DNA of 64,000 bases from Candidatus Eiseniibacteriota bacterium (GCA_052390515.1 JBQTGV010000011.1:9576-73575), one strand, 5' to 3'. Positions 44,423-61,433 are shown, counted from the first letter of the stretch. Numbers and translations are program-made. The notes: generated by a model from the letters alone, not told the origin.

Positions 44423-45012
44423 CCGGTTCCTTGCTGCGTCCATCCCGGCGCTGCGTTCCCCGCGGCGTCCATTCCCTGCGGTGCTTTCCCGGAGAGGTTC
44501 TTGTCGCGGAGCGTCAGCAGGTACGCGACGACGTCCTGGATGCGCTGCGGCCCGAGCTGGTTCATCCACGCCACCATTCCCTTGTCGGGCACGCCGTTCG
44601 TCACGGTTCGATGGATCTGCAGCGGTGAGCCGCCGTGGATCCAGTACTCGTCCGTCAGATTCGGACCGATGTCGCCGGAGGCGTCGGGCCGGTGGCAGGT
44701 CGCGCAGATCTGGCCGAACACGGCGCCACCTGCGGCGACCCTCTCCGGCACCTGCGACACGAGCAGCAGCGTCTCGTCGGAAAGCTCCTGCCCGGACATC
44801 CTGGCGAGCTGGAGCTCGGCGGCGGCTGCCATCTCCGCGGCGTACGCGTCCCGGGGGAGGTGGCCCAGGCGCCAGGTGTGGAAGAACAGCCAGTACCCGA
44901 CGGCGAAGACGATCGCGCCGTACAGCGTCCACAGCCACCAGTTGGGGAGACGGTTGTCGAACTCGTGGATCCCGTCGTACTCGTGCTCGCGGAGCTTGTC
45001 CTGATCCGCCAT
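44419..45012 (-). CDS. ccoP: cbb3 oxidase subunit III CcoP, monoheme variant
   Basis: 'EYDGIHEFDNRLPNWWLWT' is the CcoP/FixP N-terminal signature plus TM. There is a single 'CATCH' heme motif (typical CcoP is diheme). Confidence 0.8.
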   Translation of the reverse strand: MADQDKLREHEYDGIHEFDNRLPNWWLWTLYGAIVFAVGYWLFFHTWRLGHLPRDAYAAEMAAAAELQLARMSGQELSDETLLLVSQVPERVAAGGAVFGQICATCHRPDASGDIGPNLTDEYWIHGGSPLQIHRTVTNGVPDKGMVAWMNQLGPQRIQDVVAYLLTLRDKNLSGKAPQGMDAAGNAAPGWTQQGTG

Positions 45013-45013
45013 G

Positions 45014-45196
45014 TCAGACCTCCTCCCGCCCGTCCGCTTCGAGAGGCAGACGCGCCACGTGGTCCATACGCTCGTGCCGGCGGAGACCTCGGATCTCGCG
45101 GACCAGCACCACGGTGAACGCGACGAGGAAGATCGCGAGCGCGACGAGCGGCCACGCCAGCAGATCGCTCTTCGCGAACCAGCTCTCGAACATCAT
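45014..45196 (-). CDS. ccoQ: cbb3 oxidase small subunit CcoQ/FixQ-like (60 aa)
   Basis: 'MMFESWFAKSDLLAWPLVALAIFLVAFTVVLV' is a single-TM peptide in CcoQ position. The ATGA overlap with the ccoNO stop. Confidence 0.6.
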   Translation of the reverse strand: MMFESWFAKSDLLAWPLVALAIFLVAFTVVLVREIRGLRRHERMDHVARLPLEADGREEV

Positions 45197-47742: not shown

Positions 47743-47908
47743 CGGTCGTGCCTCCTTGCGGCAGCGGGGATTCGTCGGCCTCGAGCGGCAGGAGAGACAG
47801 GCGGTCGCCGTGCTCGAAGTCCCCGCCGTGGATGCGGGAGAAGAGCAGGATCAGCGCCGCGCCCACGAGCCCCAGGCTGATGAAGACGAGCACCACGATC
47901 ACTTCCAT
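47732..47908 (-). CDS. ccoS: cbb3 oxidase maturation protein CcoS/FixS (58 aa)
   Basis: 'MEVIVVLVFISLGLVGAALILLFSRIHGGDFEHGD' is a typical CcoS single-TM peptide. It overlaps the ccoI stop (10 nt) and the ccoNO start (11 nt). Confidence 0.7.
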   Translation of the reverse strand: MEVIVVLVFISLGLVGAALILLFSRIHGGDFEHGDRLSLLPLEADESPLPQGGTTDDR

Positions 47909-50358
47909 GAGAGACGCCTCTCGGAGAGCCGCCAGGCGGTGACGGAGACGATTGCGGCGGAGGAGAGCGGCATCAGCACGGCAGCGTGCACGGGCGTGAC
48001 CAGCCCGGCGAAACACAGCGCGAGCGCGGCGACGTTGTAGGCGACGGCCACGACCAGGTTGTCGCGAACGACGGACCTGAGCACCCGCGGCAGCTCGATC
48101 GCGGCGCGGACGGCTCCGAGCCCGCCGCCGAGGAAGTAGAAGTCGGCGCGCGCGGGCAGCGAGGCGTGGTCCACGGCCGGCGTGCCCGAAGTCCAGGCTG
48201 CGGACAGGCTCGGCGCGTCGTTCAGCCCGTCGCCGATCATCAGCGTGTCGCGGCGGTCGAGCGAAGCCACGAGCGCGGCCTTGTCTTCGGGGGAGAGCCG
48301 TGCCCTGGCGCGGTCCGCGGGGATTCCCAGCTCGCGCGCGGCTGCTTCGACGCGATCGGGTGCGTCGCCGCTCAACAGGTGCACTTCGAGGCCGCGGCCC
48401 GCGAGCGCGGCGAGCTCCTCGGCGGCATCGTCGCGCAGGTCTTCGCCCCAGGGAATCGCCGCGAGCAGCCGGCCGTCGGCGGAGAGGACCGCCTCGGACC
48501 GCCAGCCGAGCGGCGAACCGTTCGCCGCACTGCCGCTGCCGAGGGCGAAGTCCCGCCGGCCGAGGCGCCACATCCGTTCGCCGTCGGACCACTCGAGGCC
48601 GAGCCCGGCCACCTCGCGGACCGCGGCGCCGCGGAGCACGTCGGGAGCGTCGTCCTCGGCCAAGGCGGCAGCCAGGGCCACGCTCACCGGATGGTTGCTG
48701 CGGACGGCGAGATTGTAGAGCGCACCGCGGGCTTCGCCCGTCAGCGAACCGATGACGCGACGGCCTTCGCTGGTGACGCGCAAGCCGCTGCGGGTCAGCG
48801 TCCCGGTCTTGTCGAACAGCACCTTGCGGATGCCGAGGGCGCGATCGGTGAACGTGGCGCTGCGCACGAACACGCCGCGACGGCGCAGCGCCGCGTGGAT
48901 CATCTCGTGCGCCAGCGGCGTCGCTAGGCCGAGCGCGCAGGGGCACGTCACTACCAGGATGGAGACGGTGACCTGGAACGCGCGTTCCACGCCGGCCGGC
49001 GACCAGGAGAGGAACCCGACCACCGCCAGCGCCAGAACCGCGGCGACGTACCCGGTGCTCACCCGGTGCCACCACGCGCCCGATCGCCGCGCGTCGTCCG
49101 CTTCGGGCATCGCGGCCAGCAGATCCACGAGCCGCGACTCGCCGAAGCCCTGCAGCGCGAGGAGGCGGATCGCCGCATCGCCGGCGTTGAACGAACCCGC
49201 GCGCACCGTGCCGCCGGCCTCGACCGACCCGACCCGGGATTCGCCGTCGATCCAGTCGAGGGAGACGAGCGCCGGTCCCTCGAGGAGACGACCGTCGAGC
49301 GGCACGAGGTCGCCGGGGACGACCCACACCTCGTCGCCTTTGCGGAGCTCGGATGCCGGAACGGACCCGAGGCGGCCGTCGCGCAGCCGCCTCGCGGAGA
49401 GGCCGTCCACACCTTCGGCGGCGAGCAGCGCGCGGCGGTTGCGCTCCAGCACTCGCTCCTGCAGCCAGCGACCGAGCAGCATCAGAGTCACGAACGCGGC
49501 GAGCGAGTCGAAGTACGCGGCCTGCGGGCCGCGCGCGAAGTGCTCCCACACCGAGCCGCCCCACGCCAGCAGGATGCCGAGCGAAATGGGCAGGTCGAGG
49601 TGGACGAGCCGGCGGCGCACGCCGAGCCACGCGCCGCGGAAGAAGACCGGTCCTGCTGCGGCCACCGCCACGGTCCCCAGCGCGAGGTTCAGCCACCCGA
49701 AGTACGGATAGACGACGCCGTCTTGCGGCGAGAGCCCGAAGTAGTAGCTCAGGCTGAACATCATCACGTTCATCGCTGCGGCGGTGGAGATGCCGAGGCG
49801 GAGGAGCAGACCGCGGCTCCTCGTCGTCGCCTGCTTGCGCGCCGGCCCGAATCGGTAGCCGAAGCGAAGGGCCTCGGCCAGGAACACGCGCAGATCGCCG
49901 CCCGCCGGCGACCACGACACGTCCGCCGTGCCGGCCGCCGGGTTGACCCGAAGGTGTACCGCGCCCGGCGTGCGCGCGAACAGCTCCTGCAGCAGCCAGA
50001 CGCACGCCGCGCAGTGCACACCCTGGACGTCGAGCGCGAGGCGCCGGACTCCGGGCGCTTCGCCCTCCGTGAGGCGGTCGAGCCATGCGAATGAATCCGC
50101 TCGGTCGCGGGCCGGCGGGGCGATCGCCCCACGACGCAAGTCATAGAAACGAGCGAGCCCGGACTCCCCAATGAGGTCGTGAACGCTCCGGCAGCCGGAG
50201 CAGCAGAAAGGGTCCGCGCGGCGCCGGCGCTCCCGGGGGACAGGGAGGCCGCAGTGCCGGCATTCGGAGGGGGTGGCCGCCGCGCCCGGGAGGACGGCCA
50301 GCGCCGGGAGAGGGGCGATATCGGCCGTGCGAGCCACCGGAGCGGGAATCGAGCCCAT
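47899..50358 (-). CDS. ccoI: Copper-translocating P1B-type ATPase CcoI/FixI
   Basis: N-terminal CxxC metal-binding motifs. 'TCPCALGLATP' is the CPC motif, 'DKTGTLT' the phosphorylation site, 'MIGDGLNDAP' the hinge. Eight TM helices. Confidence 0.9.
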   Translation of the reverse strand: MGSIPAPVARTADIAPLPALAVLPGAAATPSECRHCGLPVPRERRRRADPFCCSGCRSVHDLIGESGLARFYDLRRGAIAPPARDRADSFAWLDRLTEGEAPGVRRLALDVQGVHCAACVWLLQELFARTPGAVHLRVNPAAGTADVSWSPAGGDLRVFLAEALRFGYRFGPARKQATTRSRGLLLRLGISTAAAMNVMMFSLSYYFGLSPQDGVVYPYFGWLNLALGTVAVAAAGPVFFRGAWLGVRRRLVHLDLPISLGILLAWGGSVWEHFARGPQAAYFDSLAAFVTLMLLGRWLQERVLERNRRALLAAEGVDGLSARRLRDGRLGSVPASELRKGDEVWVVPGDLVPLDGRLLEGPALVSLDWIDGESRVGSVEAGGTVRAGSFNAGDAAIRLLALQGFGESRLVDLLAAMPEADDARRSGAWWHRVSTGYVAAVLALAVVGFLSWSPAGVERAFQVTVSILVVTCPCALGLATPLAHEMIHAALRRRGVFVRSATFTDRALGIRKVLFDKTGTLTRSGLRVTSEGRRVIGSLTGEARGALYNLAVRSNHPVSVALAAALAEDDAPDVLRGAAVREVAGLGLEWSDGERMWRLGRRDFALGSGSAANGSPLGWRSEAVLSADGRLLAAIPWGEDLRDDAAEELAALAGRGLEVHLLSGDAPDRVEAAARELGIPADRARARLSPEDKAALVASLDRRDTLMIGDGLNDAPSLSAAWTSGTPAVDHASLPARADFYFLGGGLGAVRAAIELPRVLRSVVRDNLVVAVAYNVAALALCFAGLVTPVHAAVLMPLSSAAIVSVTAWRLSERRLSWK

Positions 50359-50428: not shown

Positions 50429-51166
50429 TTACCACAGGGTCACCTTGAATAGCTCAAAGTGAGGCAGGATCGACAAGGCGGCGAGCCCTCTGAGAGCCAG
50501 CTGGACGGCGAGCCCCAGGACCAGGATTGACGCGAGGCGATTCAGCCGGCGCCGGCCGGCCGGGCTCAGAAGAGACCCGCCGAGGCCCAGGACGACCAGC
50601 GCCGGTACCGTTCCGAGGCCATAGAGCAGCAGGGCGGCGCCTCCGCGAAGCGGGTCGGGTGCGGCTGCAGCAGACAGCGTCACCACCGCCACGGGGCCGC
50701 ACGGCAGGAGCCCGTTGGCGAGCCCCAGAGCGAAGTGACTGCCGGGTCGGTTCGCCCCGAGGAGGGCCTGGATCCGCCGCAACACGGGCCGCGCGAGAGA
50801 GGACTGCTCGATCCAGGACCGTGTCGGCAGGATCCCGAGCAGACCCAGCCCGAGCAGCGTCATCAGGAGGCCGACCGAAAGGGAGACGGCGCCCTGAGCG
50901 GCCGCCACCGCGACCGTGGCGCCGGCGAGCGAGAGCACGGTTCCGAGCAGCGCGTAGCTCAGGATGCGGCCGGAGTGGTAGAGAGTCGTCGCCCGCGCCA
51001 GCGCCGCTGCGGTAGCGCCCCGGGACCGTTGCGCCGCTGCGAATCCCATGACGAGCGGCCCGCACATCCCCGCGCAGTGCCCGAGGCTCACCGCGAGTCC
51101 GGTGCCGAACAGCATGACGCCGTGCAACGGCTCCGCCGGATCGAGTCCGGCGCAGCAGGGCTCCAT
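50429..51166 (-). CDS. DsbD_2/TauE-like membrane protein with paired-Cys motifs, commonly linked to cbb3 assembly clusters
   Basis: 245 aa with six or more TM helices. 'GHCAGMCGPLV' and 'LLPCGPVAV' are conserved Cys motifs in TM1/TM4. Located directly upstream of ccoI on the same strand. Confidence 0.6.
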   Translation of the reverse strand: MEPCCAGLDPAEPLHGVMLFGTGLAVSLGHCAGMCGPLVMGFAAAQRSRGATAAALARATTLYHSGRILSYALLGTVLSLAGATVAVAAAQGAVSLSVGLLMTLLGLGLLGILPTRSWIEQSSLARPVLRRIQALLGANRPGSHFALGLANGLLPCGPVAVVTLSAAAAPDPLRGGAALLLYGLGTVPALVVLGLGGSLLSPAGRRRLNRLASILVLGLAVQLALRGLAALSILPHFELFKVTLW

Positions 51167-51279
51167 GCGCGCAGGATACGCCCCGCGGCGGGGAGGCGCC
51201 AGGACGCGCCCGTCCCGCGCGCGAGGCAGTTTCGCGGTATGTTGGCCGTCGCTCCTCGCCCCGAAACCCCGGAGACCTC

Positions 51280-51825
51280 ATGTCCCGCTCGCGCTTCTTC
51301 GCCTCATCGTTGCTTCCCTGGATCGCCCTCGCCGTCCTCGCGGTCCGCCCGACCGCCGCCACGGAGCTTCCGACCGGCAGCTTCACGTTCGAGAAGCAGA
51401 TCGTCGTGCCGGGCGCGCCCGCGGTCATCTACGACGCGATGACCGGCGACGTCTCCGGCTGGTGGGACCATCACTTCTCGGAGCATCCCAAAGCGCTGTA
51501 CATCGAGGCGAAGCCGGGGGGCGGCTTCTACGAGATCTTCGACGACTCCGGGGACGGGGCGAAGCACGCCGAAGTCATCTTCGCGAAGCGCGGCGAGATC
51601 CTCAAGATGCGCGGGCCGCTGGGCTTCTCCGGCAACGCGATCGACCTCGTGCACACGTTCCGCTTCGCGGCGGAGGACGACTCGACGCGCGTGACCCTCA
51701 CGCTCAACGCCGTCGGCCAGCTCGAGGAGGGCTGGCAGCAGGCCGCCGAGCAGGTCTGGGATCACTTCCTCGTCGAGCAGTTCAAGACCTGGGTCGAGGC
51801 CGGCCGACACCTCGCCGAAGAGTGA
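51280..51825 (+). CDS. Secreted SRPBCC (START/polyketide-cyclase-like) protein
   Basis: Signal peptide 'MSRSRFFASSLLPWIALAVLAVRPTAA'. The 'GWWDHHFSEHPKALYIEAKPGGGFYEIFDD' pattern resembles AHSA1/SRPBCC. Confidence 0.65.
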   Translation: MSRSRFFASSLLPWIALAVLAVRPTAATELPTGSFTFEKQIVVPGAPAVIYDAMTGDVSGWWDHHFSEHPKALYIEAKPGGGFYEIFDDSGDGAKHAEVIFAKRGEILKMRGPLGFSGNAIDLVHTFRFAAEDDSTRVTLTLNAVGQLEEGWQQAAEQVWDHFLVEQFKTWVEAGRHLAEE

Positions 51826-51837
51826 CGGCCGCGCCTT

Positions 51838-52293
51838 CTACGGCCAGCGCTTGGCCAGCTGCTCGATCGCCGCGTCCAGCGCGGCCGCGGACTCCAGGCT
51901 GGAACCCTGCTTCGTCTTCATGGCCGCGCGCATCACCTGATGGTGATCCGCCAGCGCGGCCAGGTAGTCGGCGTGCCCCTCGGCTCCCGCGGCGACGTCC
52001 TTCAGCTTCTGCGTCAGGAAGTACACGGACACGACCTCGATGATGTGCGAAGCGTGCTCTTCCTTCGTCATGATCCAGCGCGTGGCCTGATTCACCGACT
52101 CGGCGTCACGCTTGCCGGCCAGATCGTTGATGTTGGTGATGGCCTTGGAGATGGTCGCTGCGTCCTCGCGGAGCTGGACGAGGCGCGCGGCGTCGTCGTA
52201 GATGCCGCAGGGGACCTGGCAGTGGGCATGTACGCCGGCGGCGGCGAGCACCGGTAGCGCGAACGCGACGAGCCAGGCTGTGGCCTTCTTCAT
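51838..52293 (-). CDS. sodN: Nickel-containing superoxide dismutase (Ni-SOD) with a Sec-type signal peptide
   Basis: 'HCQVPCGIYDD' matches the Ni-hook (His1-Cys2-x-x-Pro-Cys6-Gly-x-Tyr9). It is preceded by 'MKKATAWLVAFALPVLAAAGVHA', with a GGAGG Shine-Dalgarno sequence upstream. The four-helix-bundle remainder is about 125 aa. The long upstream ORF extension is rejected. Confidence 0.8.
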   Translation of the reverse strand: MKKATAWLVAFALPVLAAAGVHAHCQVPCGIYDDAARLVQLREDAATISKAITNINDLAGKRDAESVNQATRWIMTKEEHASHIIEVVSVYFLTQKLKDVAAGAEGHADYLAALADHHQVMRAAMKTKQGSSLESAAALDAAIEQLAKRWP

Positions 52294-52539
52294 GATCGGC
52301 TCCTCCATCGAGAGTCGGGTGCAACGTCTTTGAGGCGGCATTCTTTCCGGCCGCGGTGGGGCTGTCAACACGGCGAAGTTTTCGCTGTTCCGCCGAGGGT
52401 GGGATGTGCTTATCATTCGCTCGGGCCCGCGGTGATCCACGAGTACGGAGGCCGCGGCGGCCGGCGCAGGCGGGGCGACCTGCGCGGCCGGGCGGGTTGG
52501 GTCCCGCCGTGATGGGCGCGCCCGGAAGGAGGTGATCCA

Positions 52540-52584
52540 GTGGGTTGTACCAAATACGGCTCGGCAGAGGTGACGTCCCCTTAG
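52540..52584 (+). other. 14-codon ORF (MGCTKYGSAEVTSP, GTG start) preceded by a perfect AAGGAGGTGATCC Shine-Dalgarno sequence; candidate small peptide or leader inside a structured intergenic region
   Basis: A 13-nt exact complement of the 16S 3' end, 7 nt upstream of GTG. It lies in a 430-nt non-coding gap with reduced GC and is followed by stable hairpins. Confidence 0.25.
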
Positions 52585-52668
52585 GGGGCCCTTCCTGAGC
52601 GTAGGCGGCTCCACGGATGGACACCCCTCTTCGGGGGGTACCCAACGTCGCGGATGCCCAGACCGAAC

Positions 52669-52706
52669 GGCCCCGGCGCGATTCGTCGCGCCGGGGCCTC
52701 TTCCTC
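52669..52706 (+). terminator. Putative intrinsic terminator: 12-bp GC stem (GGCCCCGGCGCG/CGCGCCGGGGCC), 6-nt loop, then TCTTCCTC
   Basis: A perfect inverted repeat read directly from the sequence. The pyrimidine/T-rich tail is on the plus strand only. A C(UUCG)G-type hairpin lies 30 nt upstream (52625-52638). Confidence 0.3.
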
Positions 52707-52724
52707 GGAGGCGGTTCACGGAAC

Positions 52725-55034
52725 TCAGAGCCGACGCTTCACTCCGAGGTGCAGCGTGACGTCATCCTCGCCGCGCTCGGGGACGCGAAGGAACGCGCCC
52801 GATTCCACCTTCCAGTCCGCGCTGATCGGCGCGCGCACGACGAGCCCCGCGGAACGGGACCGAACTCTGCCGGGCTCGAGTGCAGCGCCGGTGAAGTAGC
52901 TCTCGCCACCGGTCAGCGCGAGGAAGCGCATCTCCGTTCCACGGAACGGGGCGGAGAGGATCAGGCTCGCGCCGCCGAGCGAGTCATCTCCGCCGGCGTC
53001 GAAGCTCGTGCGCACGACGTGGCCGCGGAGCCCCATCCAGGCATCGGCCGGCAGGTACACGATGGCGCCGGTAACGAGCTCGAGCACCGACGCGTCGGTG
53101 AAGCGGGACGTGCGCGCGATCCAGGTGACCGACACCGGTGAGACCGCGGCGGCCTCTCCCTCGAGCGAAGCCGACCACCGCGCCGACGCGTCCGCTCCGG
53201 GTGCGGCGCGGAGCTCGAGCCCCGCCCCGGCGGTCGACCACAGAGCGGTCTCCGTCCCGAGGACGAAGCCGGCGTCGCGCTCGTCGTTCCGCTCCAGCGT
53301 GTAGGCGCCGGCGGTCACGCCGAGGAGCCGACGACCCCCGCTTCGCTCCCATCCCCAACGGTGCCGGCCCTCGAACCAGGTGGCGTGCAGTCCCCCCTCG
53401 CGGTGCTCGGTCGCGGCGAAGAGCGCGGCCTCCCGGGAAACCGGCGACCCTTCCGCCGGCCCGGCACCGAGCAGAGCGAGGGCGAACGTGGCGATCCTCG
53501 CCGTGGACGATGCCGCGGTGCGGAATCCGCGACGCTCCATGTCGCCCCAGGCGTGGATTCCGCGCAGGTACTCCCACGTGCCCTGCAGCCGCCACCACAC
53601 CGTGGCCTGGCGGTAGCCGAGCTCGCCGAGCGCACACGCGGCGACGAGACGCAGCCGATCACGCCACGAGTCCATGCCGAGCAGCGAACGCATGTGCGTG
53701 CGTGCCGGCACCACGGGTTCGAGCCAGGTGGCGCAGAGCACTGAGACCAGCGAGTGCAGCATGCCGAACCCCAGCGCGACCGCCGCCAGTAGAACGGCGC
53801 GCTCCACGTCGAGCGCGCCGAGCAGCACCACGAAGGGCAGCAACAGGTAGCCGAGCGCCTCGACGTACGGCCCGCAGAACTCGAACGCGACGACATAGGG
53901 GAACGCCAGCAGACCGACGCGCCCGTAGGCCGGGTTCAGCAGCATCGTCCGGTGGTAGCGCACGATCTCGAGCAGGCCGCGATGCCACCGCCGCCGCTGC
54001 CGGGCGAGCACGCGAACACTCGAAGGCACTTCGGTCCAGCAGACCGGAAGCGGCGTGTGCACGATCTTCGCCGGGCGTCCGGTCTCGCGACCATAGCGGT
54101 GCAGGCGCACGATGAGCTCCATGTCCTCGCCCACCGTTCCGCGTCCCGCACCCGAGTACTCCGCCAGCAGCCGCGAACGCACGCGTCCCGTGAGGAAGCC
54201 GCCGACCGCGAGCGCCGTCTCGCGCCGCGTCACCAGGAACGCACCCGACAGGATCAGCAGGCACCCGAGGCGGCTCCACCCGGTCCGCGCGGTCGTGAAC
54301 GAGCGCACGTACTCGAGCGCCTGGCAGAGCGGAAGGTAACGGCGCGGCACGCGCACCTGCGTGACGCGTCCGCCTTCCAGCACCGAGTCGTTCACGATCC
54401 CGATCTGCCCGCCCACCGCGTCGACCGAGGGATCGTCCTGGAACACTCTCGTCACCAGCTTGAGCGACGACGGATCGAGGATCGAATCGGCGTCCACGGT
54501 CACGAAGTACGGTGACCGGCAGGTGTTGAGCGCGCAGTTCAGGGCGTCGGCGCGACCGCCGTTCTCCTTGTCGACGACGATGAGACGCTCCACGTTCGCC
54601 GGAAGAGGCACGCCGCACTCGTACACGCCCCGCACCGCGGCGGTGTGCAGCCGGCCCTGCTCGCTGGAATCGTGCAGGCGCAGGCGGAACGCGCTACGCA
54701 AAGCCGCGAGCGTCCCGTCCTTCGAGCCGTCGTTGACGACGATGACCTCGAGCCGCGGGTAGTCGAGCTGCAGGAACGTGCGGACGGAGTCGACGATCCC
54801 GCGCTCCTCGTTGTAGGCCGGCACGAGCACGGCGATCGGCGCGCAGCCCGGGTCGTCGTCCATCATGTCCAGGTCGTGGTAGGCGAGCGCCCGCACGTGC
54901 TCCCGCGCGGGGCGGAAGCCCAGCAGGACGAGTGCGCTGTTTACGACCGCGTAGACGACGGTGAAGCCGAGGGCGAAGTACTCGGCGACGAGGAGGACGG
55001 CCAGGACGGGCGAGAGTTCGCCGAGGGAAGTCAC
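52725..55034 (-). CDS. PgaC/HAS-like processive GT2 polysaccharide synthase with a ~300-aa C-terminal extension
   Basis: The GTG start overlaps the HEAT-gene stop (GTGA). It has N-terminal TMs. The GT2 core is 'IAVLVPAYNEERG...VIVVNDGSKDGT...VDADSIL...QRRRWHRG' (a QxxRW-like processive motif). Several C-terminal TM helices follow, then a beta-rich 270-aa tail. The frame upstream of 55034 overlaps the HEAT gene and is rejected. Confidence 0.8.
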   Translation of the reverse strand: MTSLGELSPVLAVLLVAEYFALGFTVVYAVVNSALVLLGFRPAREHVRALAYHDLDMMDDDPGCAPIAVLVPAYNEERGIVDSVRTFLQLDYPRLEVIVVNDGSKDGTLAALRSAFRLRLHDSSEQGRLHTAAVRGVYECGVPLPANVERLIVVDKENGGRADALNCALNTCRSPYFVTVDADSILDPSSLKLVTRVFQDDPSVDAVGGQIGIVNDSVLEGGRVTQVRVPRRYLPLCQALEYVRSFTTARTGWSRLGCLLILSGAFLVTRRETALAVGGFLTGRVRSRLLAEYSGAGRGTVGEDMELIVRLHRYGRETGRPAKIVHTPLPVCWTEVPSSVRVLARQRRRWHRGLLEIVRYHRTMLLNPAYGRVGLLAFPYVVAFEFCGPYVEALGYLLLPFVVLLGALDVERAVLLAAVALGFGMLHSLVSVLCATWLEPVVPARTHMRSLLGMDSWRDRLRLVAACALGELGYRQATVWWRLQGTWEYLRGIHAWGDMERRGFRTAASSTARIATFALALLGAGPAEGSPVSREAALFAATEHREGGLHATWFEGRHRWGWERSGGRRLLGVTAGAYTLERNDERDAGFVLGTETALWSTAGAGLELRAAPGADASARWSASLEGEAAAVSPVSVTWIARTSRFTDASVLELVTGAIVYLPADAWMGLRGHVVRTSFDAGGDDSLGGASLILSAPFRGTEMRFLALTGGESYFTGAALEPGRVRSRSAGLVVRAPISADWKVESGAFLRVPERGEDDVTLHLGVKRRL

Positions 55035-58000
55035 GCAGTCTCGCCCTTTCCGGCCGGCGCTCCGGCGTCGATCCGCGCGAGGGCCTTGGCGGCGGCGGCG
55101 GACACGCGCGACGAGGGATCGCGGCGCGCCTGCACCAGCGCCTGTCGCCGATCGCCCTCCCGCTCCCCGAGGTCCGTGCGCGGACTCCCCAGCAGCCGGA
55201 CGGACGCGTGGCGAACCGCGGGCGACGGATCGGCCAGGGCGTCGAGCAAGGTGCCGGCGCCCGCCGCTCCGAGCCGCGGTAGGACGTGTGCGCAGGCTGC
55301 GGCGCGCACGGAGGCCCAGCGGTGCTCCAGCAGCAGGCGGACCACCTCGGGCGGCGGCACCGCGCTCGTGCGGGCAATGATCCGGGCGAGCGCGCAGAGC
55401 GTACGTTCGCTCTCGGGCCGGGCGGCGACGGCGCGGAGGATCGTGTCGAGGTGCTCTTCGGCGCGCCGACCGAGCGCGTCGGTCACGGCGATGTGGAAGC
55501 GTCGCCGTCCCGTCTCGAGATGCCGCAGAAGGAGCGGGATCGCCTCTTCCGGCAGCAGCTCGTCGGACTTGCGCGCGGCACGGACCGCCACCGACTCGTC
55601 GGGGTCCCGCAGCGCGTGCTCGAGGATGCCCACCTTCTGGGGCAGACGGCTCCGAGTCACCAGGAACTCCAGCGCGGCCGACCGCACCGGCGGCGCGGGG
55701 TCCATCAGGCAGACACCGAGCAGCACGACCTCGGCGCGCCGCGAGTCGAGCGAGCGCAGACCCTGCACGCAGCGGAGCCGCGTGGCCGCGTCGGGAGAGC
55801 GCTCCAGCTCGTGAAGCAGCATGAGCTCGGCGTAGTAGGGTGAGTCGGCTCCGAGCAGTCGGGCGAGGAACGGCGCCCCCGGCCGCTCCGCGTTCGAGCG
55901 CAGCGCCGCGAGCAACGGGTGTCCCTCGTCGCGCCAGTGGTGCAGGATGCGCAGGCGCTCCTCGTCGCGGAGCGCGGCGAGCCACTCCGGGAGCGCCTCC
56001 TCGTGCCCCTGATAGAGGCACGCCGCAGTCACCGCGAGCCGCACTTCCGGCTGCGGCCCGGAGCGAGCCTCGAGGCGTTCGCACAGCTCCCTCGGGAGCG
56101 CGCCGCGCAGCCCCAGGGCGAAGGCCACGTCGACCGCGACGCGCACGTCGCCGGACGACAGTGCGGCGACGATCTGCCGCCCGATGCGTTCGCCGGGAAC
56201 GAGCGCCACGGCGCGAACCGCCGCGGATGCGACGAGCGGGGACGGGTCCGTCGTGCACGCCGCCACGATCGGGGTCAGCTCGTCGGCGGCTGCTCCCGAG
56301 TGGACGGCAGCGGGGAAGGCGGTGGTCCGTACGCGGTCGTCGGCATCGGTCAGCAGTCGCGCGAGACCGAGGCGTTCCGCGCGGCCCGGCAGGACGAGCG
56401 CCGCAGCGGCCCGAGCCCAGCGCGCCGCCGCATCGTCCCGGGCTTCGAGGTGGAGAAGCACGTCGTCCGCAAGCGAGCTCGCCACGTCCCGGACCACCGC
56501 GGCCAGTCGATCGAGATCGCGGTCCGCGGTGCGGGGAAGGAGGGCCATGGCGAGATCCACCGACGGCAGCCCGACGCCCGCACCGAGGCCGTGCACCAGC
56601 GCGTCGAGATCGGCACCGTTCCACTCCGCGACGCCGTTCGCGAGCAAGAGGTCGTGGCGTCCGAGCGCCGCCAGCGCGCGGGCGCCTGCGCCGCGCACCA
56701 GGGCATCGGAATCGGAGAGCGAGGGCAGCACGGCCTCGACCGGGAGTCGCGGCGTCCGCATGGTCTCGACGAGGCGAAGCGCCGCCCGACGCACGCCGGG
56801 ATTCGCGTCGGCGAGCAGGGCGGTCACGTCGGGCACGCGAGCCGGGCTCCCGAGGGCCTCGTAGTACTCGAGGCACGCGAGGCGAACCCACTCGTCCGCG
56901 GAGGCGAGATACGGTGCGACCTCCGCGTCGAACCCGCCGGCGCGCACGCCGCGGAGCGCCTCCAGGACTCGCGCTTCGAGGGCGGGGTCGTCGGTCCGGG
57001 CGAGCAGGTCGACGAGTGCCGGTCCGGCGCGCCGATCACCCACGCGCCCGAGCACGCGGATGAGCTGCGTGACGAGCGCCGAATCGGGGTCGCGCAGGCC
57101 GTCGAGCAGCGCGTCCAGGCTGCCTGCCTTGCCGAGATCGTGCAGCAGCTCCGCCACTTCCGGCGTGTACCCCTCGCGGCGCAGCGACTCGATCGCCTCG
57201 GTCACGACGCCGATTCGGTCCAGGCCGCGCGCCGCCTCGCGGGCCACGTGCGGGTCGCGGTCGTGCAACGCACCGAGCAGCGAGTCGCGGGCCGGCGATC
57301 CGAGGTTCGCCAGCGACTCGACGGCTCGCAAGCGCACCCACCACTCGGGATCGGAGAGAGCGCGCGCCAGGAACTCGACGGTCTCGCGCGCGGGCAGCGA
57401 GCCGAGCGCGCGCGCCACCGCGGTGCGCACGAACGAGCTCGGGTCGGTGAGCAGGCGATCGAGGAGCGGCCCGACCGAAGAGGAGTCACGCAGGCGGCCG
57501 AGGGCTTTCGCGGAGCGAGCGCGCAGCTCCGGATCGACGTCGGCCAGCGCGTCGTGCAGCGGGCGAACCGCGCGGCGATCCCCGATCTCCCCGAGGATGG
57601 CCGCCGCCCAGCGCCGGCTCGCGGCGGGCCGCGCAGGATCGGCCAGCTCGCGCACCAGCGGCTCGACGGCACCGGACCCGATTCGCCCGAGCGCGGCGGC
57701 GGCGCGCGGAGGGAACCACGTCTCCGCGGAGCTGAGCGCCTCGATCAGCACCGGTGCCGCGTCCGGATGGCGGACGCGCTCCAGGGACCGCAGCGCGACG
57801 GCGCGCACCGGCGGCGGCTCGCCGACCGCGTCGAGCGCCACCTCGAGGAGCGCGGGGACGACGCGGGGGCTTCCCGTCCAGCCCAGCATCTCCGCCGCCG
57901 CCGCCCGACGTACCCAGCGCTTCTCCGTGCGAAGAGCGCGCAGGTAGCGGTCGACGATTCCGGAGGCTTCGTACTCGCCGGGAGAGAGGTTCGCGGGATC

Positions 58001-58267
58001 TTCGCCCCGCTTCACGACGAGGTCGAGCCACTGGTCCAGCGTGCGCAGGTCCGCGAGCAGCGAGTTCCGCGCCAGCTCCCCTTGGAGCAGGGCGCTTCCG
58101 CCGGCGCCCATGTCATCGAACATGTGCCCGAGCAGCGGCGAACGCGCGCGCAGCCGCCGCAAGCGCCACGCCACCCACGCGTTGCGCGCGACAAGCACGG
58201 CGACGATCGCCACCTGGGTGGCTGCGATCGTCAAGACCGACCAGAAGAGCCAGGTTCTGGAAATCAA
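55031..58267 (-). CDS. Membrane-anchored giant HEAT-repeat (PBS-lyase HEAT-like) protein
   Basis: 1078 aa. N-terminal TM 'WLFWSVLTIAATQVAIVAVLVA', then more than 25 'xxVRxxAxxALGxLGxxxAxxxLxxxLxDxDxxVR' HEAT-like repeats. Translationally coupled to the GT2 synthase. Confidence 0.8.
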   Translation of the reverse strand: MISRTWLFWSVLTIAATQVAIVAVLVARNAWVAWRLRRLRARSPLLGHMFDDMGAGGSALLQGELARNSLLADLRTLDQWLDLVVKRGEDPANLSPGEYEASGIVDRYLRALRTEKRWVRRAAAAEMLGWTGSPRVVPALLEVALDAVGEPPPVRAVALRSLERVRHPDAAPVLIEALSSAETWFPPRAAAALGRIGSGAVEPLVRELADPARPAASRRWAAAILGEIGDRRAVRPLHDALADVDPELRARSAKALGRLRDSSSVGPLLDRLLTDPSSFVRTAVARALGSLPARETVEFLARALSDPEWWVRLRAVESLANLGSPARDSLLGALHDRDPHVAREAARGLDRIGVVTEAIESLRREGYTPEVAELLHDLGKAGSLDALLDGLRDPDSALVTQLIRVLGRVGDRRAGPALVDLLARTDDPALEARVLEALRGVRAGGFDAEVAPYLASADEWVRLACLEYYEALGSPARVPDVTALLADANPGVRRAALRLVETMRTPRLPVEAVLPSLSDSDALVRGAGARALAALGRHDLLLANGVAEWNGADLDALVHGLGAGVGLPSVDLAMALLPRTADRDLDRLAAVVRDVASSLADDVLLHLEARDDAAARWARAAAALVLPGRAERLGLARLLTDADDRVRTTAFPAAVHSGAAADELTPIVAACTTDPSPLVASAAVRAVALVPGERIGRQIVAALSSGDVRVAVDVAFALGLRGALPRELCERLEARSGPQPEVRLAVTAACLYQGHEEALPEWLAALRDEERLRILHHWRDEGHPLLAALRSNAERPGAPFLARLLGADSPYYAELMLLHELERSPDAATRLRCVQGLRSLDSRRAEVVLLGVCLMDPAPPVRSAALEFLVTRSRLPQKVGILEHALRDPDESVAVRAARKSDELLPEEAIPLLLRHLETGRRRFHIAVTDALGRRAEEHLDTILRAVAARPESERTLCALARIIARTSAVPPPEVVRLLLEHRWASVRAAACAHVLPRLGAAGAGTLLDALADPSPAVRHASVRLLGSPRTDLGEREGDRRQALVQARRDPSSRVSAAAAKALARIDAGAPAGKGETA

Positions 58268-58466
58268 AGGCCAGGAGCGGCAGGTCCGGGGCCGGGGTGC
58301 GCTCTCTTGGGAAGGTTCGGCAAAGAATGACTTCGGTCTTAGCTTCCCCCCCTCGGCCCCCCGACGGTTCCAACTTCAGGTCCCGGCGACCTCCGCACGC
58401 CGATTCGGACTTCGGCCCGGTGACCCTCTCGGCGCCAGTCGTGTACCTTTCGCCGAGGGAGGAACC

Positions 58467-60334: not shown

Positions 60335-61360
60335 ATGGAGCGACGTCATCCGCGCGCCTTCCCGCGCGACGACCAGCGGGTCTACGACGCCTACATCGCC
60401 GGGCGGCAGAGCGCGGCCGTCGCGGCAGCGGTGCGCATCGGGCTCTTCGAGCTGATCGCCCGCGAGGGACCGCTGAGCGAGGCGGCGGTCGGCGAACGGC
60501 TCCGCTTCCACGCGCGGCCGCTGCGCGCACTGCTCGCGGCGCTCTTCGCCATGGGACTGCTCGAGCGGAAGGGCGAACGCTTCGCTCTGTCCGCGGACGC
60601 AGCCGACTACCTCGTCCGCGGAAGGCCCGGATGGCTCGGCGGTCTGATCGACATGGAAGTGGAGCAGTTCCTCTCGCCGGCGTCGATGATCGAGGCGCTG
60701 GAAAAGGGGCGTCCCACGATCTACGGCGACGTCGATCCGTGGGAGGTCCACCGAGCCGATCACGCGCGCGCGCGCGCCTTCACCGCCGCCATGCACAGCA
60801 TCAGCGAGCGGCCGGCGGCGGGCTTCGCCGAGGTCGTGGACTTCTCCCGCGTGCGCAGGCTGCTCGACGTCGGCGGCGGATCGGGCGCGCTCTCGCTCGC
60901 CGTCGCCCGCGCGTGGCCGCAGGTGTGCTGCGTCATCTTCGATCTCGCCGTCGTCTGCGACATCGCCCGGGAGTATGCCGCGGCGGCGAGTCTGGCGGAG
61001 CGTGTCACCGCGGAGCCCGGAGACATGTTCGCCGACGAGCTCCCGTCGGGCTTCGACGCCGTCCTCTACTCGCAGATCCTGCACGACTGGCCGCCGGAAA
61101 AGGACGCCTTCCTCCTGGCGAAGGCGCACGCCGCGCTTCCGCCCGGCGGCATCGTTCTCGTGCATGAGAAGCTGGTCGAGGACGACGGGCGCGGTCCCCT
61201 GGCGAACGCGCTCGTGAACCTGGACATGGCGCTGTGGACCGAAGGCCAGCAGTTCTCCGAGGCCGAGCTTCGCGAGTTGCTCGGGGCGGCCGGCTTCGTC
61301 GACGTGGAGCGACGGCCCACGGCCGGCTACTGGAGCGTCGTCATCGGGCGAAAGGCCTGA
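60335..61360 (+). CDS. Class I SAM-dependent O-methyltransferase (Methyltransf_2 / COMT-like, with N-terminal dimerisation domain)
   Basis: 'RLLDVGGGSGALSLAVARAWP' (motif I), 'VIFDL', 'GDMFADELPSGFDAVLYSQILHDW', 'GGIVLVHEKL' are plant/bacterial OMT family motifs. Confidence 0.85.
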   Translation: MERRHPRAFPRDDQRVYDAYIAGRQSAAVAAAVRIGLFELIAREGPLSEAAVGERLRFHARPLRALLAALFAMGLLERKGERFALSADAADYLVRGRPGWLGGLIDMEVEQFLSPASMIEALEKGRPTIYGDVDPWEVHRADHARARAFTAAMHSISERPAAGFAEVVDFSRVRRLLDVGGGSGALSLAVARAWPQVCCVIFDLAVVCDIAREYAAAASLAERVTAEPGDMFADELPSGFDAVLYSQILHDWPPEKDAFLLAKAHAALPPGGIVLVHEKLVEDDGRGPLANALVNLDMALWTEGQQFSEAELRELLGAAGFVDVERRPTAGYWSVVIGRKA

Positions 61361-61433
61361 TTCGTTCCGCCGGGCCGTCCCGATCCGCTACAATCGGGGG
61401 AGGCCCGCGCCGGGCCACCTGGGAGAAAGCCCC

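What the first reader, a model, noticed from the sequence alone, without database searches (positions are those of the whole stretch)
52725..58267. GTGA-coupled pair of a giant membrane-anchored HEAT-repeat protein and a PgaC-like GT2 synthase with a 300-aa C-terminal extension
The 1078-aa protein has one N-terminal TM helix and then nothing but HEAT-like repeats. It is translated immediately ahead of a 769-aa processive-type GT2 (DxD, QxxRW-like 'QRRRWHRG') whose catalytic domain is flanked by TM helices. The GT2 ends in a beta-rich ~270-aa domain absent from PgaC, IcaA or hyaluronan synthases.

The likeliest role is a scaffold plus synthase for a secreted or envelope homopolysaccharide. The HEAT array and the C-terminal domain would act as regulatory or polymer-handling modules. 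No partner deacetylase, porin or PilZ gene is adjacent. I cannot assign it to Pga, Pel, Bcs or Alg.
Basis: partly seen in the sequence, partly recalled or inferred. Interest (0 to 1): 0.6.

Follow-up and report, generated by a model that had tools for sequence, protein, structure and literature searches.

The report
Sugar-polymer synthase fused to its outer-membrane pore
The unexplained tail of this membrane sugar-polymer synthase is an outer-membrane export pore, joined through an internal secretion signal, and the giant HEAT-repeat gene ahead of it is the enlarged form of a partner that accompanies this synthase family across bacteria and archaea, a system I found no paper about.

Summary
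Two minus-strand genes overlap in GTGA: a 1078-aa HEAT-repeat protein with one N-terminal membrane helix, and a 769-aa GT2 synthase with a beta-rich C-terminus.

HEAT+GT2 is a widespread module. In 85 related loci, 75 have a same-strand ORF ending at the GT2 start, and 70 of those are Pfam HEAT_2. A response-regulator gene usually lies alongside. A YaiO porin gene appears only in double-membrane (diderm) taxa. The module also occurs in Firmicutes, Actinobacteria and a haloarchaeon.

This window carries a rare variant: a fused porin, a HEAT partner enlarged by about 730 aa, and no response regulator.

It is not Pga, Bcs, Pel or Alg. I rate it a new variant of synthase-dependent polysaccharide secretion. 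The polymer, the cleavage and the HEAT function are inferred, not shown.

The parts
55031..58267 (-). HEAT-repeat partner gene (1078 aa, TTG start)
   Evidence: ORF and translation. Pfam HEAT_2 E 4e-71. GC3 frame plot supports the frame. Orthologues lie directly upstream of the GT2 in all related loci examined.
58178..58255 (-). N-terminal membrane anchor of the HEAT protein (residues 5-30), followed by an R-rich stretch (RNAWVAWRLRRLRAR)
   Evidence: Hydropathy scan. The same helix followed by basic residues occurs in five giant homologues and in the small Mesorhizobium and Haloarcula partners. By the positive-inside rule the repeats lie in the cytoplasm; this is an inference.
57227..58252 (-). 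Conserved core of the HEAT partner (residues 6-347), equivalent to the whole ~370-aa partner of other phyla
   Evidence: An HMM built from 54 small partners matches residues 6-347 end to end (model positions 19-351 of 369, 168 bits, E 8e-53).
55034..57226 (-). Lineage-specific extension of about 730 aa made of further HEAT repeats
   Evidence: Only repeat-level matches to the small-partner HMM. Pfam finds HEAT-type families throughout. Giant partners of 1108-1198 aa occur in L001-L003, L005 and L007 (L004 and L006 repeat L003 and L005); longest upstream ORFs of 987-1240 aa occur in L009-L012.
55031..55034 (-). GTGA stop/start overlap (translational coupling)
   Evidence: Sequence. A 4-nt overlap is also seen in L001, L003, L005, L007, L088, L092 and L093.
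52725..55034 (-). GT2 synthase::YaiO barrel fusion gene (769 aa)
   Evidence: ORF. 16 full-length homologues of 751-789 aa at 43-88% identity come from independent samples.
54906..55010 (-). GT2 N-terminal transmembrane helix (about residues 9-43), with invariant E18 and Y28
   Evidence: Hydropathy, AF2 helix 9-50, invariant columns.
53976..54839 (-). GT-A catalytic domain (residues 66-353), containing VNDGS, DAD 181-183 (54486-54494), GED 302-304 and QRRRW 346-350 (53985-53999)
   Evidence: Pfam PF13641, PF00535 and PF13632. The motifs are invariant in alignment A1. Foldseek top hits are hyaluronan synthase, BcsA, Chs2 and CesA8.
53721..53918 (-). Two C-terminal transmembrane helices of the synthase (about residues 373-404 and 412-438)
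   Evidence: Hydropathy and AF2 helices 368-404 and 410-435.
53565..53666 (-). Amphipathic helix (residues 457-490). With the W496..R501..G503 tail it forms the cytoplasmic end of the synthase, which is where unfused homologues stop.
   Evidence: AF2 helix 457-490. The segment is below the hydropathy threshold. Unfused relatives match the query only up to residues 503-514.
53442..53540 (-). Internal signal-peptide-like segment (residues 499-531): n-region MERRGFR..AR (+4), h-core IATFALALL (9 aa), c-region GAGPA|EG
   Evidence: Sequence. The same n-h-c layout, with AxA-type sites, is present in all 17 fused homologues. AF2 pLDDT is below 50 here, consistent with a flexible linker. Cleavage near A527/E528 is inferred from the -3/-1 rule and was not tested.
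52728..53438 (-). 14-stranded outer-membrane beta-barrel of the YaiO family (residues 533-769)
58268..58466 (.). Divergent intergenic region between the HEAT gene and the DUF72 gene (ATG at 58467); presumed promoter region of the two-gene operon
   Evidence: Sequence. DUF72 Pfam hit. The scan found no sigma-70 consensus here.
52264..52724 (.). 461-bp spacer after the GT2 stop. It holds the promoter-like site of the next gene (sodN) at 52340-52368, and so marks the end of the operon.

Best explanation
This is a two-gene operon for a synthase-dependent polysaccharide secretion system of an undescribed but widespread type.

(1) Synthase. The first ~505 residues of the GT2 form a membrane-integrated processive glycosyltransferase. 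It polymerises a nucleotide sugar in the cytoplasm and pushes the chain through its own membrane channel. The sugar is possibly UDP-GlcNAc, but this is not established.

(2) Internal signal peptide. The cytoplasmic C-terminal tail of the synthase runs straight into a Sec-type signal peptide. This carries the remaining ~235 residues across the inner membrane.

(3) Porin release. Signal peptidase I most likely cuts near A527/E528. The freed domain is then inserted by BAM into the outer membrane as a 14-stranded YaiO-family barrel, the export pore for the polymer. In other diderm lineages the same barrel is a separate gene, often with TPR repeats, in the same operon. In this lineage the GT2-then-YaiO gene order has collapsed into one reading frame, which gives 1:1 production.

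(4) HEAT partner. The HEAT protein is the obligatory, translationally coupled partner of this synthase family. It has one N-terminal membrane helix and a cytoplasmic alpha-solenoid. In most relatives a CheY-like response regulator is encoded immediately upstream. The solenoid is therefore most likely the docking or regulatory subunit through which phosphorylation switches the synthase, in the role c-di-GMP receptors play in Bcs, Pga, Pel and Alg. In this window the partner carries ~730 extra residues of repeats and no response regulator is nearby.

Shown here: domain identities, the barrel fold, the signal-peptide-like layout, and the gene linkage across taxa.
Inferred: cleavage, outer-membrane location, polymer export, polymer identity, and the regulatory role of the HEAT protein.
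For: Barrel:
- NCBIfam TIGR04390 (YaiO) is the only family hit for the C-terminus (E 4.6e-5 full length; 3.4e-6 for the domain alone). It matches 16 of 17 fused homologues, best 1e-11.
- A profile of the domain searched against 1.84 billion representatives returns 32 proteins. All 10 more distant hits that I scanned match TIGR04390 at E <= 1e-6, 9 of them above the 32-bit cut-off. They are standalone or carry N-terminal TPR repeats.
- AF2 gives 14 strands at pLDDT 90 and pTM 0.83.

Signal peptide:
- All 17 fused proteins have a basic n-region (+3 or +4), an 8-17 aa hydrophobic core, then P/G and small-x-small motifs. 15 of 17 end in F or W.
- Counting helices puts the synthase tail in the cytoplasm, so the segment would insert N-in/C-out.

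System membership:
- Mesorhizobium pMESCI01 carries RR-RR-YaiO OMP-HEAT-GT2-Hpt.
- Emticicia pEMTOL05 carries RR-hypothetical protein (not tested for HEAT)-GT2-x-YaiO OMP-LtaS-like.
- A Haloarcula plasmid carries RR-HEAT-GT2-HK without YaiO.
- Among the GT2-anchored loci, YaiO-like ORFs occur in 34 (fused forms included), none of them in a locus from Firmicutes, Actinobacteria or archaea. In L029, L036 and L052 the YaiO ORF starts right at the GT2 end.

HEAT linkage:
- 75 of 85 loci have a same-strand ORF ending at the GT2 start, and 70 of those are Pfam HEAT_2.
- Reverse look-ups of two ~400-aa HEAT proteins land in REC-(TPR)-HEAT-GT2.

Synthase class:
- Catalytic motifs are invariant.
- Foldseek top hits are HAS, BcsA, Chs2 and CesA8.

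Precedent:
- AcsAB cellulose synthase is made as one polypeptide and processed into AcsA and AcsB (PMC4877109).
Against: - The window's own barrel scores 27.2 bits, below the TIGR04390 cut-off of 32. Pfam YaiO is not hit by it. hhalign against the single E. coli YaiO sequence is not significant.
- The window protein ends in L, not F or W.
- The proposed cleavage site has P at position -2. It was judged only by the -3/-1 rule, and no signal-peptide predictor was available.
- AF2 confidence is below 50 across the linker.
- An in-frame ATG (M499, 53540) sits exactly at the start of the signal-peptide-like segment, so separate internal initiation cannot be excluded in this sequence.
- No response regulator, kinase, TPR protein, deacetylase or glycoside hydrolase lies anywhere near the pair, and the window holds no REC gene at all. 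The regulatory model is therefore borrowed from relatives.
- No experiment on any member of this system was found.
Confidence: 0.65

Rival explanations
1. The fusion is not cleaved. The beta domain stays tethered to the synthase by the hydrophobic segment and acts at the inner membrane or in the periplasm, as a polymer-guiding or polymer-binding module like BcsB. It is not an outer-membrane pore.
For: Cleavage is only inferred. P sits at -2 of the candidate site, and the window protein ends in L rather than an aromatic residue. Only about 5-10 residues lie between the candidate site and the first strand.
Against: The h-core is 8-17 aa (9 aa here), which is short for a stable membrane anchor and typical of cleavable signal peptides. 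AxA-type motifs are conserved in the 17 homologues. The fold matches only outer-membrane barrels. The same domain family is a separate, secreted outer-membrane protein in sister operons. A linker this short could not span the periplasm, so an uncleaved barrel would have no membrane to sit in.
Confidence: 0.12
2. The barrel is made mainly as a separate pre-protein from an internal start codon (M499, ATG at 53540-53538). The long ORF then functions as two overlapping, in-frame genes.
For: M499 begins a textbook signal peptide (MERRGFRTAASSTARIATFALALLGAGPA). A G-rich stretch (TGGGGCGAC) lies just upstream. 10 of the 17 homologues have M at this column.
Against: Seven homologues have F at that column, and W496..R501..G503 are conserved as the C-terminal tail of the unfused synthases. 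The residues are therefore constrained as synthase sequence, not as a start site. The G-rich stretch is forced by the conserved W-G-D codons. No stop codon separates the parts in any of the 17 sequences.
Confidence: 0.1
3. The GT2 does not make a long exported polymer. It makes short oligosaccharides or a membrane glycolipid (NodC-like or glycosyl-diacylglycerol-synthase-like). The barrel would then serve another purpose, such as uptake.
For: Only three synthase helices are predicted besides the interface helices, fewer than in BcsA. No polymer-modifying or polymer-degrading genes are adjacent in the window. NodC and other GT2 families give weak hits.
Against: QRRRW, GED, DAD and VNDGS are invariant. 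The best structural matches are processive synthases with a channel. The GT2 is linked to a porin gene only in diderms, and in Bacteroidota to an LtaS/BcsG-like modifying domain. This pattern is expected for an exported polymer.
Confidence: 0.1
4. The HEAT array is a periplasmic scaffold bridging the synthase and the porin. It would be the functional equivalent of the TPR domains of PgaA, BcsC, PelB and AlgK, which the fused barrel lacks.
For: The fused barrel has no TPR region. The giant HEAT extension occurs in the same phylum. A 1000-aa solenoid could span the periplasm.
Against: A cluster of six or more R/K residues directly follows the single N-terminal helix in all partners, placing the repeats inside. 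The partner is equally present in Firmicutes, Actinobacteria and a haloarchaeon, which have no periplasm to bridge. Giant partners also occur with unfused synthases. The neighbouring response regulator is cytoplasmic.
Confidence: 0.05

Closest known systems
PgaABCD / IcaADBC poly-beta-1,6-GlcNAc system
   Different: The GT2 scores 102 bits against a cut-off of 422. There is no PgaD, no PgaB deacetylase and no TPR domain. The barrel has 14 strands; PgaA has 16 by my own knowledge. The barrel is fused to the synthase instead of being a separate TPR-porin. The partner is a HEAT protein, and relatives carry a response regulator where Pga has a c-di-GMP-binding PgaCD interface (own knowledge).
Bacterial cellulose synthase BcsA-BcsB-BcsC, including the AcsAB fusion of Gluconacetobacter
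   Same: Both are processive GT2 enzymes with their own channel (Foldseek E about 1e-13). AcsAB shows that a synthase and its secreted partner can be one polypeptide that is processed into two proteins (PMC4877109).
   Different: There is no PilZ domain and no BcsB. The CelA model scores 34 bits against 699. The fused partner here is the outer-membrane pore itself, not a periplasmic subunit.
Hyaluronan synthase, chitin synthase and NodC class
   Same: Chlorella-virus and Xenopus HAS are the closest solved folds. The QRRRW form of the motif is the one I recall from chitin synthases (own knowledge). A weak Pfam Chitin_synth_2 hit is present.
   Different: Sequence similarity is marginal (E about 1e-4). 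Those enzymes work alone, without a HEAT partner or a porin.
E. coli YaiO outer-membrane protein and the yaiO-yaiX-yaiP-yaiS locus
   Same: The barrel belongs to the same family (TIGR04390/PF19413). In E. coli the barrel gene also sits beside a GT2 gene (yaiP) and a putative deacetylase (yaiS). YaiO is listed in the E. coli outer-membrane proteome (PMC7383365).
   Different: YaiP is not of this GT2 subfamily; only the generic N-terminal nucleotide-binding region aligns, at 27% over 147 aa. E. coli has no HEAT partner there. The function of YaiO is unknown, and the papers that mention it mostly use it as a PCR marker.
REC-HEAT-GT2(-YaiO) operons annotated only generically (for example Mesorhizobium ciceri pMESCI01 MESCI_RS32000-32015, Haloarcula halophila P0204_RS16150-16165)
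   Same: Same GT2 subfamily (38-45% identity over about 440-490 aa), same HEAT partner core, same overlap of the two genes, and the same barrel family.
   Different: In those operons the porin is a separate gene or absent, the HEAT partner is 345-382 aa, and a response regulator is adjacent. In this window the porin is fused, the partner is 1078 aa, and no response regulator is present.
Bradyrhizobium FbcH cytochrome b-c1 polyprotein (own knowledge, not checked here)
   Same: A polytopic inner-membrane protein is fused to a secreted partner through an internal signal peptide that is cleaved.
   Different: It belongs to an unrelated protein family, and the released part stays at the inner membrane rather than going to the outer membrane.

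Membership tests
Processive membrane-integrated GT2 synthases (BcsA/HAS/chitin synthase/PgaC class) | GT-A domain with nucleotide-binding D, DxD, (T/G)ED and Q(R/Q)xRW motifs | tested here: met
   VNDGS, DAD181-183, GED302-304 and QRRRW346-350 are all invariant in 17 homologues. Pfam GT2 families match.
Processive membrane-integrated GT2 synthases (BcsA/HAS/chitin synthase/PgaC class) | Catalytic domain embedded between transmembrane helices, with overall fold like solved synthases | tested here: met
   AF2 helices 9-50, 368-404 and 410-435 plus interface helices. Foldseek top hits are HAS, BcsA, Chs2 and CesA8 (E 1e-13 to 1e-9).
Processive membrane-integrated GT2 synthases (BcsA/HAS/chitin synthase/PgaC class) | Processive synthesis and translocation of a polymer | not testable with these tools
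   Needs biochemistry.
PgaC/IcaA PNAG synthase (TIGR03937) | Score above the curated equivalog cut-off | tested here: not met
   102.1 bits against a cut-off of 422.3.
PgaC/IcaA PNAG synthase (TIGR03937) | Operon partners PgaD, PgaB deacetylase and PgaA TPR-porin | tested here: not met
   Neighbouring genes are sodN, DsbD_2, DUF72, HAD and others. No such partners appear in related loci.
BcsA cellulose synthase | CelA/BcsA model score, C-terminal PilZ domain and a BcsB partner | tested here: not met
   TIGR03030 scores 34 bits against 699. There is no PilZ hit and no BcsB gene.
YaiO family outer-membrane beta-barrel (TIGR04390 / PF19413) | Match to the family model above the curated cut-off | tested here: inconclusive
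   The window domain scores 27.2 bits (E 3.4e-6) against a cut-off of 32. Sixteen of 17 fused homologues match, best 1e-11. Pfam YaiO matches one homologue at 0.037 and the divergent fused L020 at 1.6e-4.
YaiO family outer-membrane beta-barrel (TIGR04390 / PF19413) | Profile-level homology to accepted members | tested here: met
   The domain profile retrieves proteins that match TIGR04390 on their own, 9 of the 10 scanned above the cut-off (up to 89 bits). A local HMM seeded with these finds the window domain at 3e-65.
YaiO family outer-membrane beta-barrel (TIGR04390 / PF19413) | Closed antiparallel beta-barrel of outer-membrane type with a secretion signal and a C-terminal hydrophobic/aromatic end | tested here: met
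YaiO family outer-membrane beta-barrel (TIGR04390 / PF19413) | Actual outer-membrane location | not testable with these tools
   Needs fractionation.
TPR-porins of synthase-dependent systems (PgaA, BcsC, PelB, NfrA) | N-terminal periplasmic TPR array joined to the barrel | tested here: not met
   The first strand starts about 5-10 residues after the signal-peptide-like segment and there is no TPR hit. Many standalone YaiO relatives do carry TPR.
REC-HEAT-GT2(-YaiO) module (unnamed; defined here from 85 loci) | HEAT-repeat gene with an N-terminal membrane helix immediately upstream of, and overlapping or abutting, a GT2 of this subfamily | tested here: met
   GTGA overlap, membrane helix, core equivalence at 168 bits. 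In related loci, 70 of 75 upstream neighbours are HEAT_2.
REC-HEAT-GT2(-YaiO) module (unnamed; defined here from 85 loci) | Adjacent response-regulator receiver gene | tested here: not met
   No receiver-domain ORF anywhere in the 64-kb window. It is also absent in the closest full context, L001, but present in most other loci.
REC-HEAT-GT2(-YaiO) module (unnamed; defined here from 85 loci) | YaiO-type barrel encoded with the module in diderm organisms | tested here: met
   Present here as the C-terminal domain of the GT2. It is a separate gene in about 30 diderm loci.

The most novel reading that the evidence does not exclude
REC-HEAT-GT2(-YaiO) is a previously unrecognised, pan-prokaryotic class of synthase-dependent polysaccharide systems. 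It would be switched by a phosphorelay acting through a membrane-anchored HEAT solenoid, instead of by c-di-GMP. The Gemmatimonadota/Krumholzibacteria variant in this window would be the first case in which an inner-membrane glycan synthase and its outer-membrane export pore are made as one precursor and separated by signal peptidase at an internal signal peptide.
Probability: 0.4. Interest if true: 0.75.

Novelty: new variant of a known kind. Interest (0 to 1): 0.6.

Why it matters
Synthase-dependent exopolysaccharide systems (cellulose, PNAG, alginate, Pel) are central to biofilms. They are all understood as a GT2/GT4 synthase, a c-di-GMP receptor and a TPR-porin. The module found here has the same logic but different parts:
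- a HEAT solenoid partner;
- usually a CheY-like response regulator;
- a small 14-stranded YaiO barrel.

It occurs in many phyla, including Gram-positives and haloarchaea, and I found no published study of it.

If confirmed, three things follow:
- It would give a function to the YaiO family. E. coli YaiO has no known function and is used mostly as a PCR marker in the papers found.
- It would add a phosphorylation-controlled branch to polysaccharide secretion.
- Through the fusion, it would provide natural evidence that this barrel is the synthase's dedicated pore.

The fusion is also a rare kind of polyprotein, an inner-membrane enzyme plus an outer-membrane protein. It could be used to study how internal signal peptides are handled.

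Tried and rejected
1. The word-indexed homologue search with the C-terminal domain alone returned a single fragment, although full-length relatives at 88% identity exist. I replaced it with an exhaustive profile search.
2. A sequence search of PDB with the barrel profile found nothing meaningful. The fold search was needed.
3. Pfam on the barrel was almost silent, with YaiO in 1 of 17 at E 0.037. NCBIfam was informative.
4. I tested whether the E. coli yaiO-yaiP locus is the same system. YaiP shares only the generic GT2 N-terminus. hhalign of the barrel profile against the single YaiO sequence was not significant. It is the same barrel family but a different synthase.
6. Sequencing or assembly artefact for the fusion is rejected. 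Seventeen independent sequences keep one frame, and GC3 is continuous.
7. The literature search for a described HEAT+GT2 or YaiO-linked polysaccharide system found nothing. Xanthomonas xagABCD came up as a possible relative, but the papers give no domain data and I had no Xanthomonas sequence. This lead is untested.
8. The homologue search with the HEAT core was dominated by generic repeat proteins. Its top hit, P0153, is not next to a GT2. Only hits of about 400 aa covering 71% of the 350-aa query (a longer, end-to-end match rather than a few repeats) behaved as partners.
9. The afdb50 fold library was not available.

Full report
**1. What is in the sequence**

The window has about 70% G+C. 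On the minus strand, ORF 55031..58267 (TTG start, 1078 aa) and ORF 52725..55034 (GTG start, 769 aa) overlap by four bases, GTGA. A third-position GC plot keeps one coding phase through each gene, including the last 700 nt of the second gene. The long frames are therefore genuine.

The pair is bounded upstream by a divergent DUF72 gene (ATG at 58467) after a 199-bp gap. Downstream there is a 461-bp spacer and then a Ni-superoxide-dismutase gene that has the only sigma-70-like promoter match in the region. The unit is therefore a two-gene operon. The closest relatives of its proteins are metagenomic sequences, some annotated as Gemmatimonadota.

**2. The GT2 synthase part**

Pfam places GT2 families on residues 66-402. 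In an alignment of the window protein with 16 full-length homologues (43-88% identity), VNDGS, DAD181-183, GED302-304 and QRRRW346-350 are invariant.

AlphaFold2 (17-sequence alignment, mean pLDDT 77) predicts these elements:
- a long N-terminal helix (9-50);
- the GT-A domain;
- an interface helix carrying QRRRW;
- two hydrophobic helices (368-404 and 410-435);
- an amphipathic helix (457-490).

Hydropathy analysis agrees. Foldseek against PDB gives hyaluronan synthases, BcsA, chitin synthase 2 and plant CesA8 as the best matches (E 1e-13 to 1e-9).

None of the named families accepts the protein. PgaC_IcaA scores 102 bits against a cut-off of 422, CelA 34 against 699, and NodC 27 against 550. 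There is no PilZ domain. It is therefore a processive-type membrane synthase of an unnamed subfamily.

**3. The C-terminal domain is an outer-membrane barrel**

NCBIfam gives one hit on residues 577-766: TIGR04390, 'YaiO family outer membrane beta-barrel' (E 4.6e-5, below cut-off). The follow-up evidence is as follows.
- Taken alone, the domain scores 27.2 bits. Sixteen of 17 homologous domains match the model, best 1e-11.
- A profile of the 17 domains searched against 1.84 billion cluster representatives found only 32 proteins. The close hits are fused proteins or fragments of them. All ten more distant hits that I scanned match TIGR04390 on their own at E <= 1e-6, nine of them above the 32-bit cut-off. 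They are either standalone or carry N-terminal TPR repeats.
- AF2 on the domain alone gives pLDDT 90, pTM 0.83 and 14 strands.
- Fifteen of the 17 sequences end in F or W, the usual end of outer-membrane barrels by my own knowledge. The window protein ends in L.

**4. An internal signal peptide joins the two parts**

Unfused relatives of the synthase stop right after the conserved W496..R501..G503 tail. In all 17 fused proteins this tail is followed by three elements:
- 3-4 net basic residues;
- a hydrophobic core of only 8-17 residues (IATFALALL here);
- a P/G-containing stretch with small-x-small motifs (AIA|D, AGA|V, AHA|Q, ARA|G; GPA|E in the window).

This is the n-h-c layout of a Sec signal peptide.

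Counting helices gives a consistent topology: helix 1 runs out-to-in with basic residues after it, the GT domain lies inside, and helices 2 and 3 run out and back. The tail is therefore cytoplasmic, the segment would insert N-in/C-out, and the barrel would be delivered to the periplasm.

The first strand begins only about 5-10 residues after the candidate site. An uncleaved protein therefore could not reach the outer membrane, which is why I think signal-peptidase cleavage is the likeliest route. A synthase fused to a secreted partner and then processed has a precedent in AcsAB (PMC4877109).

Cleavage itself is inferred. An in-frame ATG at M499 leaves room for internal initiation in this sequence. 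However, seven homologues have F at that position.

**5. The HEAT protein is the conserved partner of this synthase family**

*Closest contexts.* In the seven look-up loci (five distinct gene contexts) holding fused or unfused close relatives, a HEAT gene of 1108-1198 aa directly precedes the GT2, usually with the same 4-nt overlap.

*Wider scan.* A scan of one genome per species gave 80 more loci with this GT2 subfamily, at 32-45% identity over about 440-510 residues. The taxa include Gemmatimonadota, Myxococcota, Proteobacteria, Bacteroidota, Verrucomicrobiota, Acidobacteriota, Nitrospirota, Firmicutes and Actinobacteria. In 75 of 85 distinct loci a same-strand ORF of at least 250 aa ends within 250 nt of the GT2 start. 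Seventy of these are Pfam HEAT_2. Most of the remaining loci are cut by contig ends.

*Core and extension.* The usual partner is about 350-400 aa. An HMM built from 54 such partners matches residues 6-347 of the window protein end to end (168 bits). The remaining ~730 residues give only repeat-level matches. The 'giant' protein is therefore the ordinary partner plus a lineage-specific extension of repeats.

*Topology.* Seven of the eight other partners inspected (five giant ones, plus Mesorhizobium and Haloarcula) begin, like the window protein, with one hydrophobic helix followed by an R/K cluster. The annotated Emticicia neighbour does not; it lacks an N-terminal hydrophobic helix. This pattern places the repeats in the cytoplasm (inference by the positive-inside rule).

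*Reverse check.* Two ~400-aa HEAT proteins found by similarity sit in REC-HEAT-GT2 and REC-TPR-HEAT-GT2 contexts. A generic HEAT protein that scored higher through its repeats does not.

**6. The wider system**

Three annotated plasmid records show the operon in plain form:
- Mesorhizobium ciceri pMESCI01: response regulator, response regulator, 'YaiO family outer membrane beta-barrel protein', HEAT protein, GT2, Hpt protein.
- Emticicia pEMTOL05: response regulator, hypothetical protein (not tested for HEAT), GT2, hypothetical protein, YaiO protein, LTA-synthase-family protein.
- A Haloarcula plasmid: response regulator, HEAT protein, GT2, histidine kinase, with no barrel.

Local HMM scans of the GT2-anchored loci gave three results:
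- YaiO-type ORFs occur within 10 kb in 34 loci (fused forms included), none of them from Firmicutes, Actinobacteria or archaea.
- In several loci (L029, L036, L052) the YaiO ORF starts right at the end of the GT2. This is the gene order from which a fusion can arise by loss of a stop codon.
- Receiver-domain ORFs lie directly upstream of the HEAT gene in most loci.

The fused form is rare. There are about 18 clusters at 90% identity among the best 120 GT2 relatives and four 50%-identity representatives. They come from Gemmatimonadota- and Krumholzibacteria-labelled assemblies. A more divergent fused example is L020.

In two Bacteroidota loci the same C-terminus of the GT2 is instead fused to an LtaS/sulfatase-type domain. 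The synthase C-terminus is therefore a recurrent fusion point for periplasm-facing partners.

The window itself has no receiver-domain gene and no second HEAT-partner or YaiO gene.

**7. How it most likely works**

Shown here:
- a processive-type GT2;
- a conserved, translationally coupled, membrane-anchored HEAT partner;
- a YaiO-family 14-stranded barrel behind a signal-peptide-like segment;
- system-level linkage of these parts, with the barrel restricted to diderms.

Inferred:
- The synthase makes and translocates a polysaccharide. A GlcNAc-containing polymer is a weak guess, based on the PgaC, chitin-synthase and HAS affinities.
- The barrel is released by signal peptidase, assembled in the outer membrane, and exports the polymer.
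- The HEAT solenoid is the cytoplasmic regulatory or docking subunit. In most relatives it would be addressed by a single-domain response regulator. Here that link is lost or replaced, perhaps in connection with the extra repeats.

Rival readings are listed with their tests in the Rival explanations section: a tethered uncleaved domain, internal initiation, a non-polymer product, and a periplasmic HEAT scaffold.

**8. Comparison with known systems, and novelty**

The logic is that of synthase-dependent secretion, as in Pga, Bcs, Alg, Pel and Nfr. Membership of each of those families was tested and not met (section 2; the membership table gives details).

The barrel belongs to the YaiO family at profile and fold level, although the window sequence is under the curated cut-off. 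E. coli YaiO is listed among outer-membrane proteins (PMC7383365) and has no known function. Its neighbour YaiP is a different GT2.

I found no paper describing a HEAT partner of a bacterial GT2 synthase, a YaiO-linked polysaccharide system, or a synthase-porin fusion. The library lacks most subscription journals, and the Xanthomonas xagABCD lead could not be tested.

I therefore rate this a new variant of a known kind. The verdict is well supported at the level of parts and linkage, and untested at the level of biochemistry.

Noticed in passing
window 45193-47850 (-): A single 885-aa ORF carries both COX1 (CcoN, residues 54-483) and FixO (CcoO, residues 673-842). This is a fused CcoN-CcoO subunit of cbb3 oxidase. 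It is followed by ccoP (44419-45192) and preceded by a CcoI-like P-type ATPase (47899-50358).
   Followed up: no
window 51838-52263 (-): The Ni-superoxide-dismutase gene has an N-terminus that looks like a Sec signal peptide (MKKATAWLVAFALPVLAAAGVHA|HCQVPCGIY). Cleavage there would expose the His1 of the Ni-hook, suggesting a periplasmic NiSOD matured by signal peptidase rather than by a SodX-type protease. The gene has its own promoter-like site at 52368-52340.
   Followed up: partly
window 51118-51825 (+): A 235-aa ORF with very strong coding signal (GC3 up to 0.98) has no Pfam match. It is convergent with sodN.
   Followed up: no
L039:2669-6211 and L062:9944-13375: In Pedobacter and Chryseobacterium the same GT2 subfamily is fused at its C-terminus to an LtaS/sulfatase-type domain (PF00884, E about 3e-33). 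This is reminiscent of the pEtN transferase BcsG of cellulose systems. In the Emticicia plasmid (L090:7673-9640) an 'LTA synthase family protein' is a separate gene after YaiO.
   Followed up: partly
L089:3448-7576 (Haloarcula halophila plasmid): The response regulator - HEAT - GT2 - histidine kinase module also occurs in haloarchaea, at 38% identity over 493 aa of the GT2.
   Followed up: partly
L007:5352-12599; also L009 and L011: In Gemmatimonadales with unfused synthases, the giant-HEAT-GT2 pair is flanked by a REC-HD-GYP-type protein upstream and a REC-HisKA protein downstream that overlaps the GT2 stop. No barrel gene lies within 10 kb. Where the porin of these systems is encoded is unexplained. 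L002 has a TPR protein with a PgaA_barrel domain upstream instead.
   Followed up: no
L061:11498-11941: The reading frame after the GT2 in a Rhodospirillales MAG contains a bactofilin domain (PF04519, E 1e-11). I did not resolve whether it is fused or a separate gene.
   Followed up: no
window 61341-63998 (+): A large ORF with strong coding signal runs off the window end. It has only a weak fungalysin/thermolysin propeptide match.
   Followed up: no
tool behaviour: The word-indexed homologue search missed 88%-identical full-length relatives when queried with the C-terminal domain alone. With the HEAT core it missed the giant orthologues. Negative results from that tool on sub-domains should not be read as absence.
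   Followed up: yes
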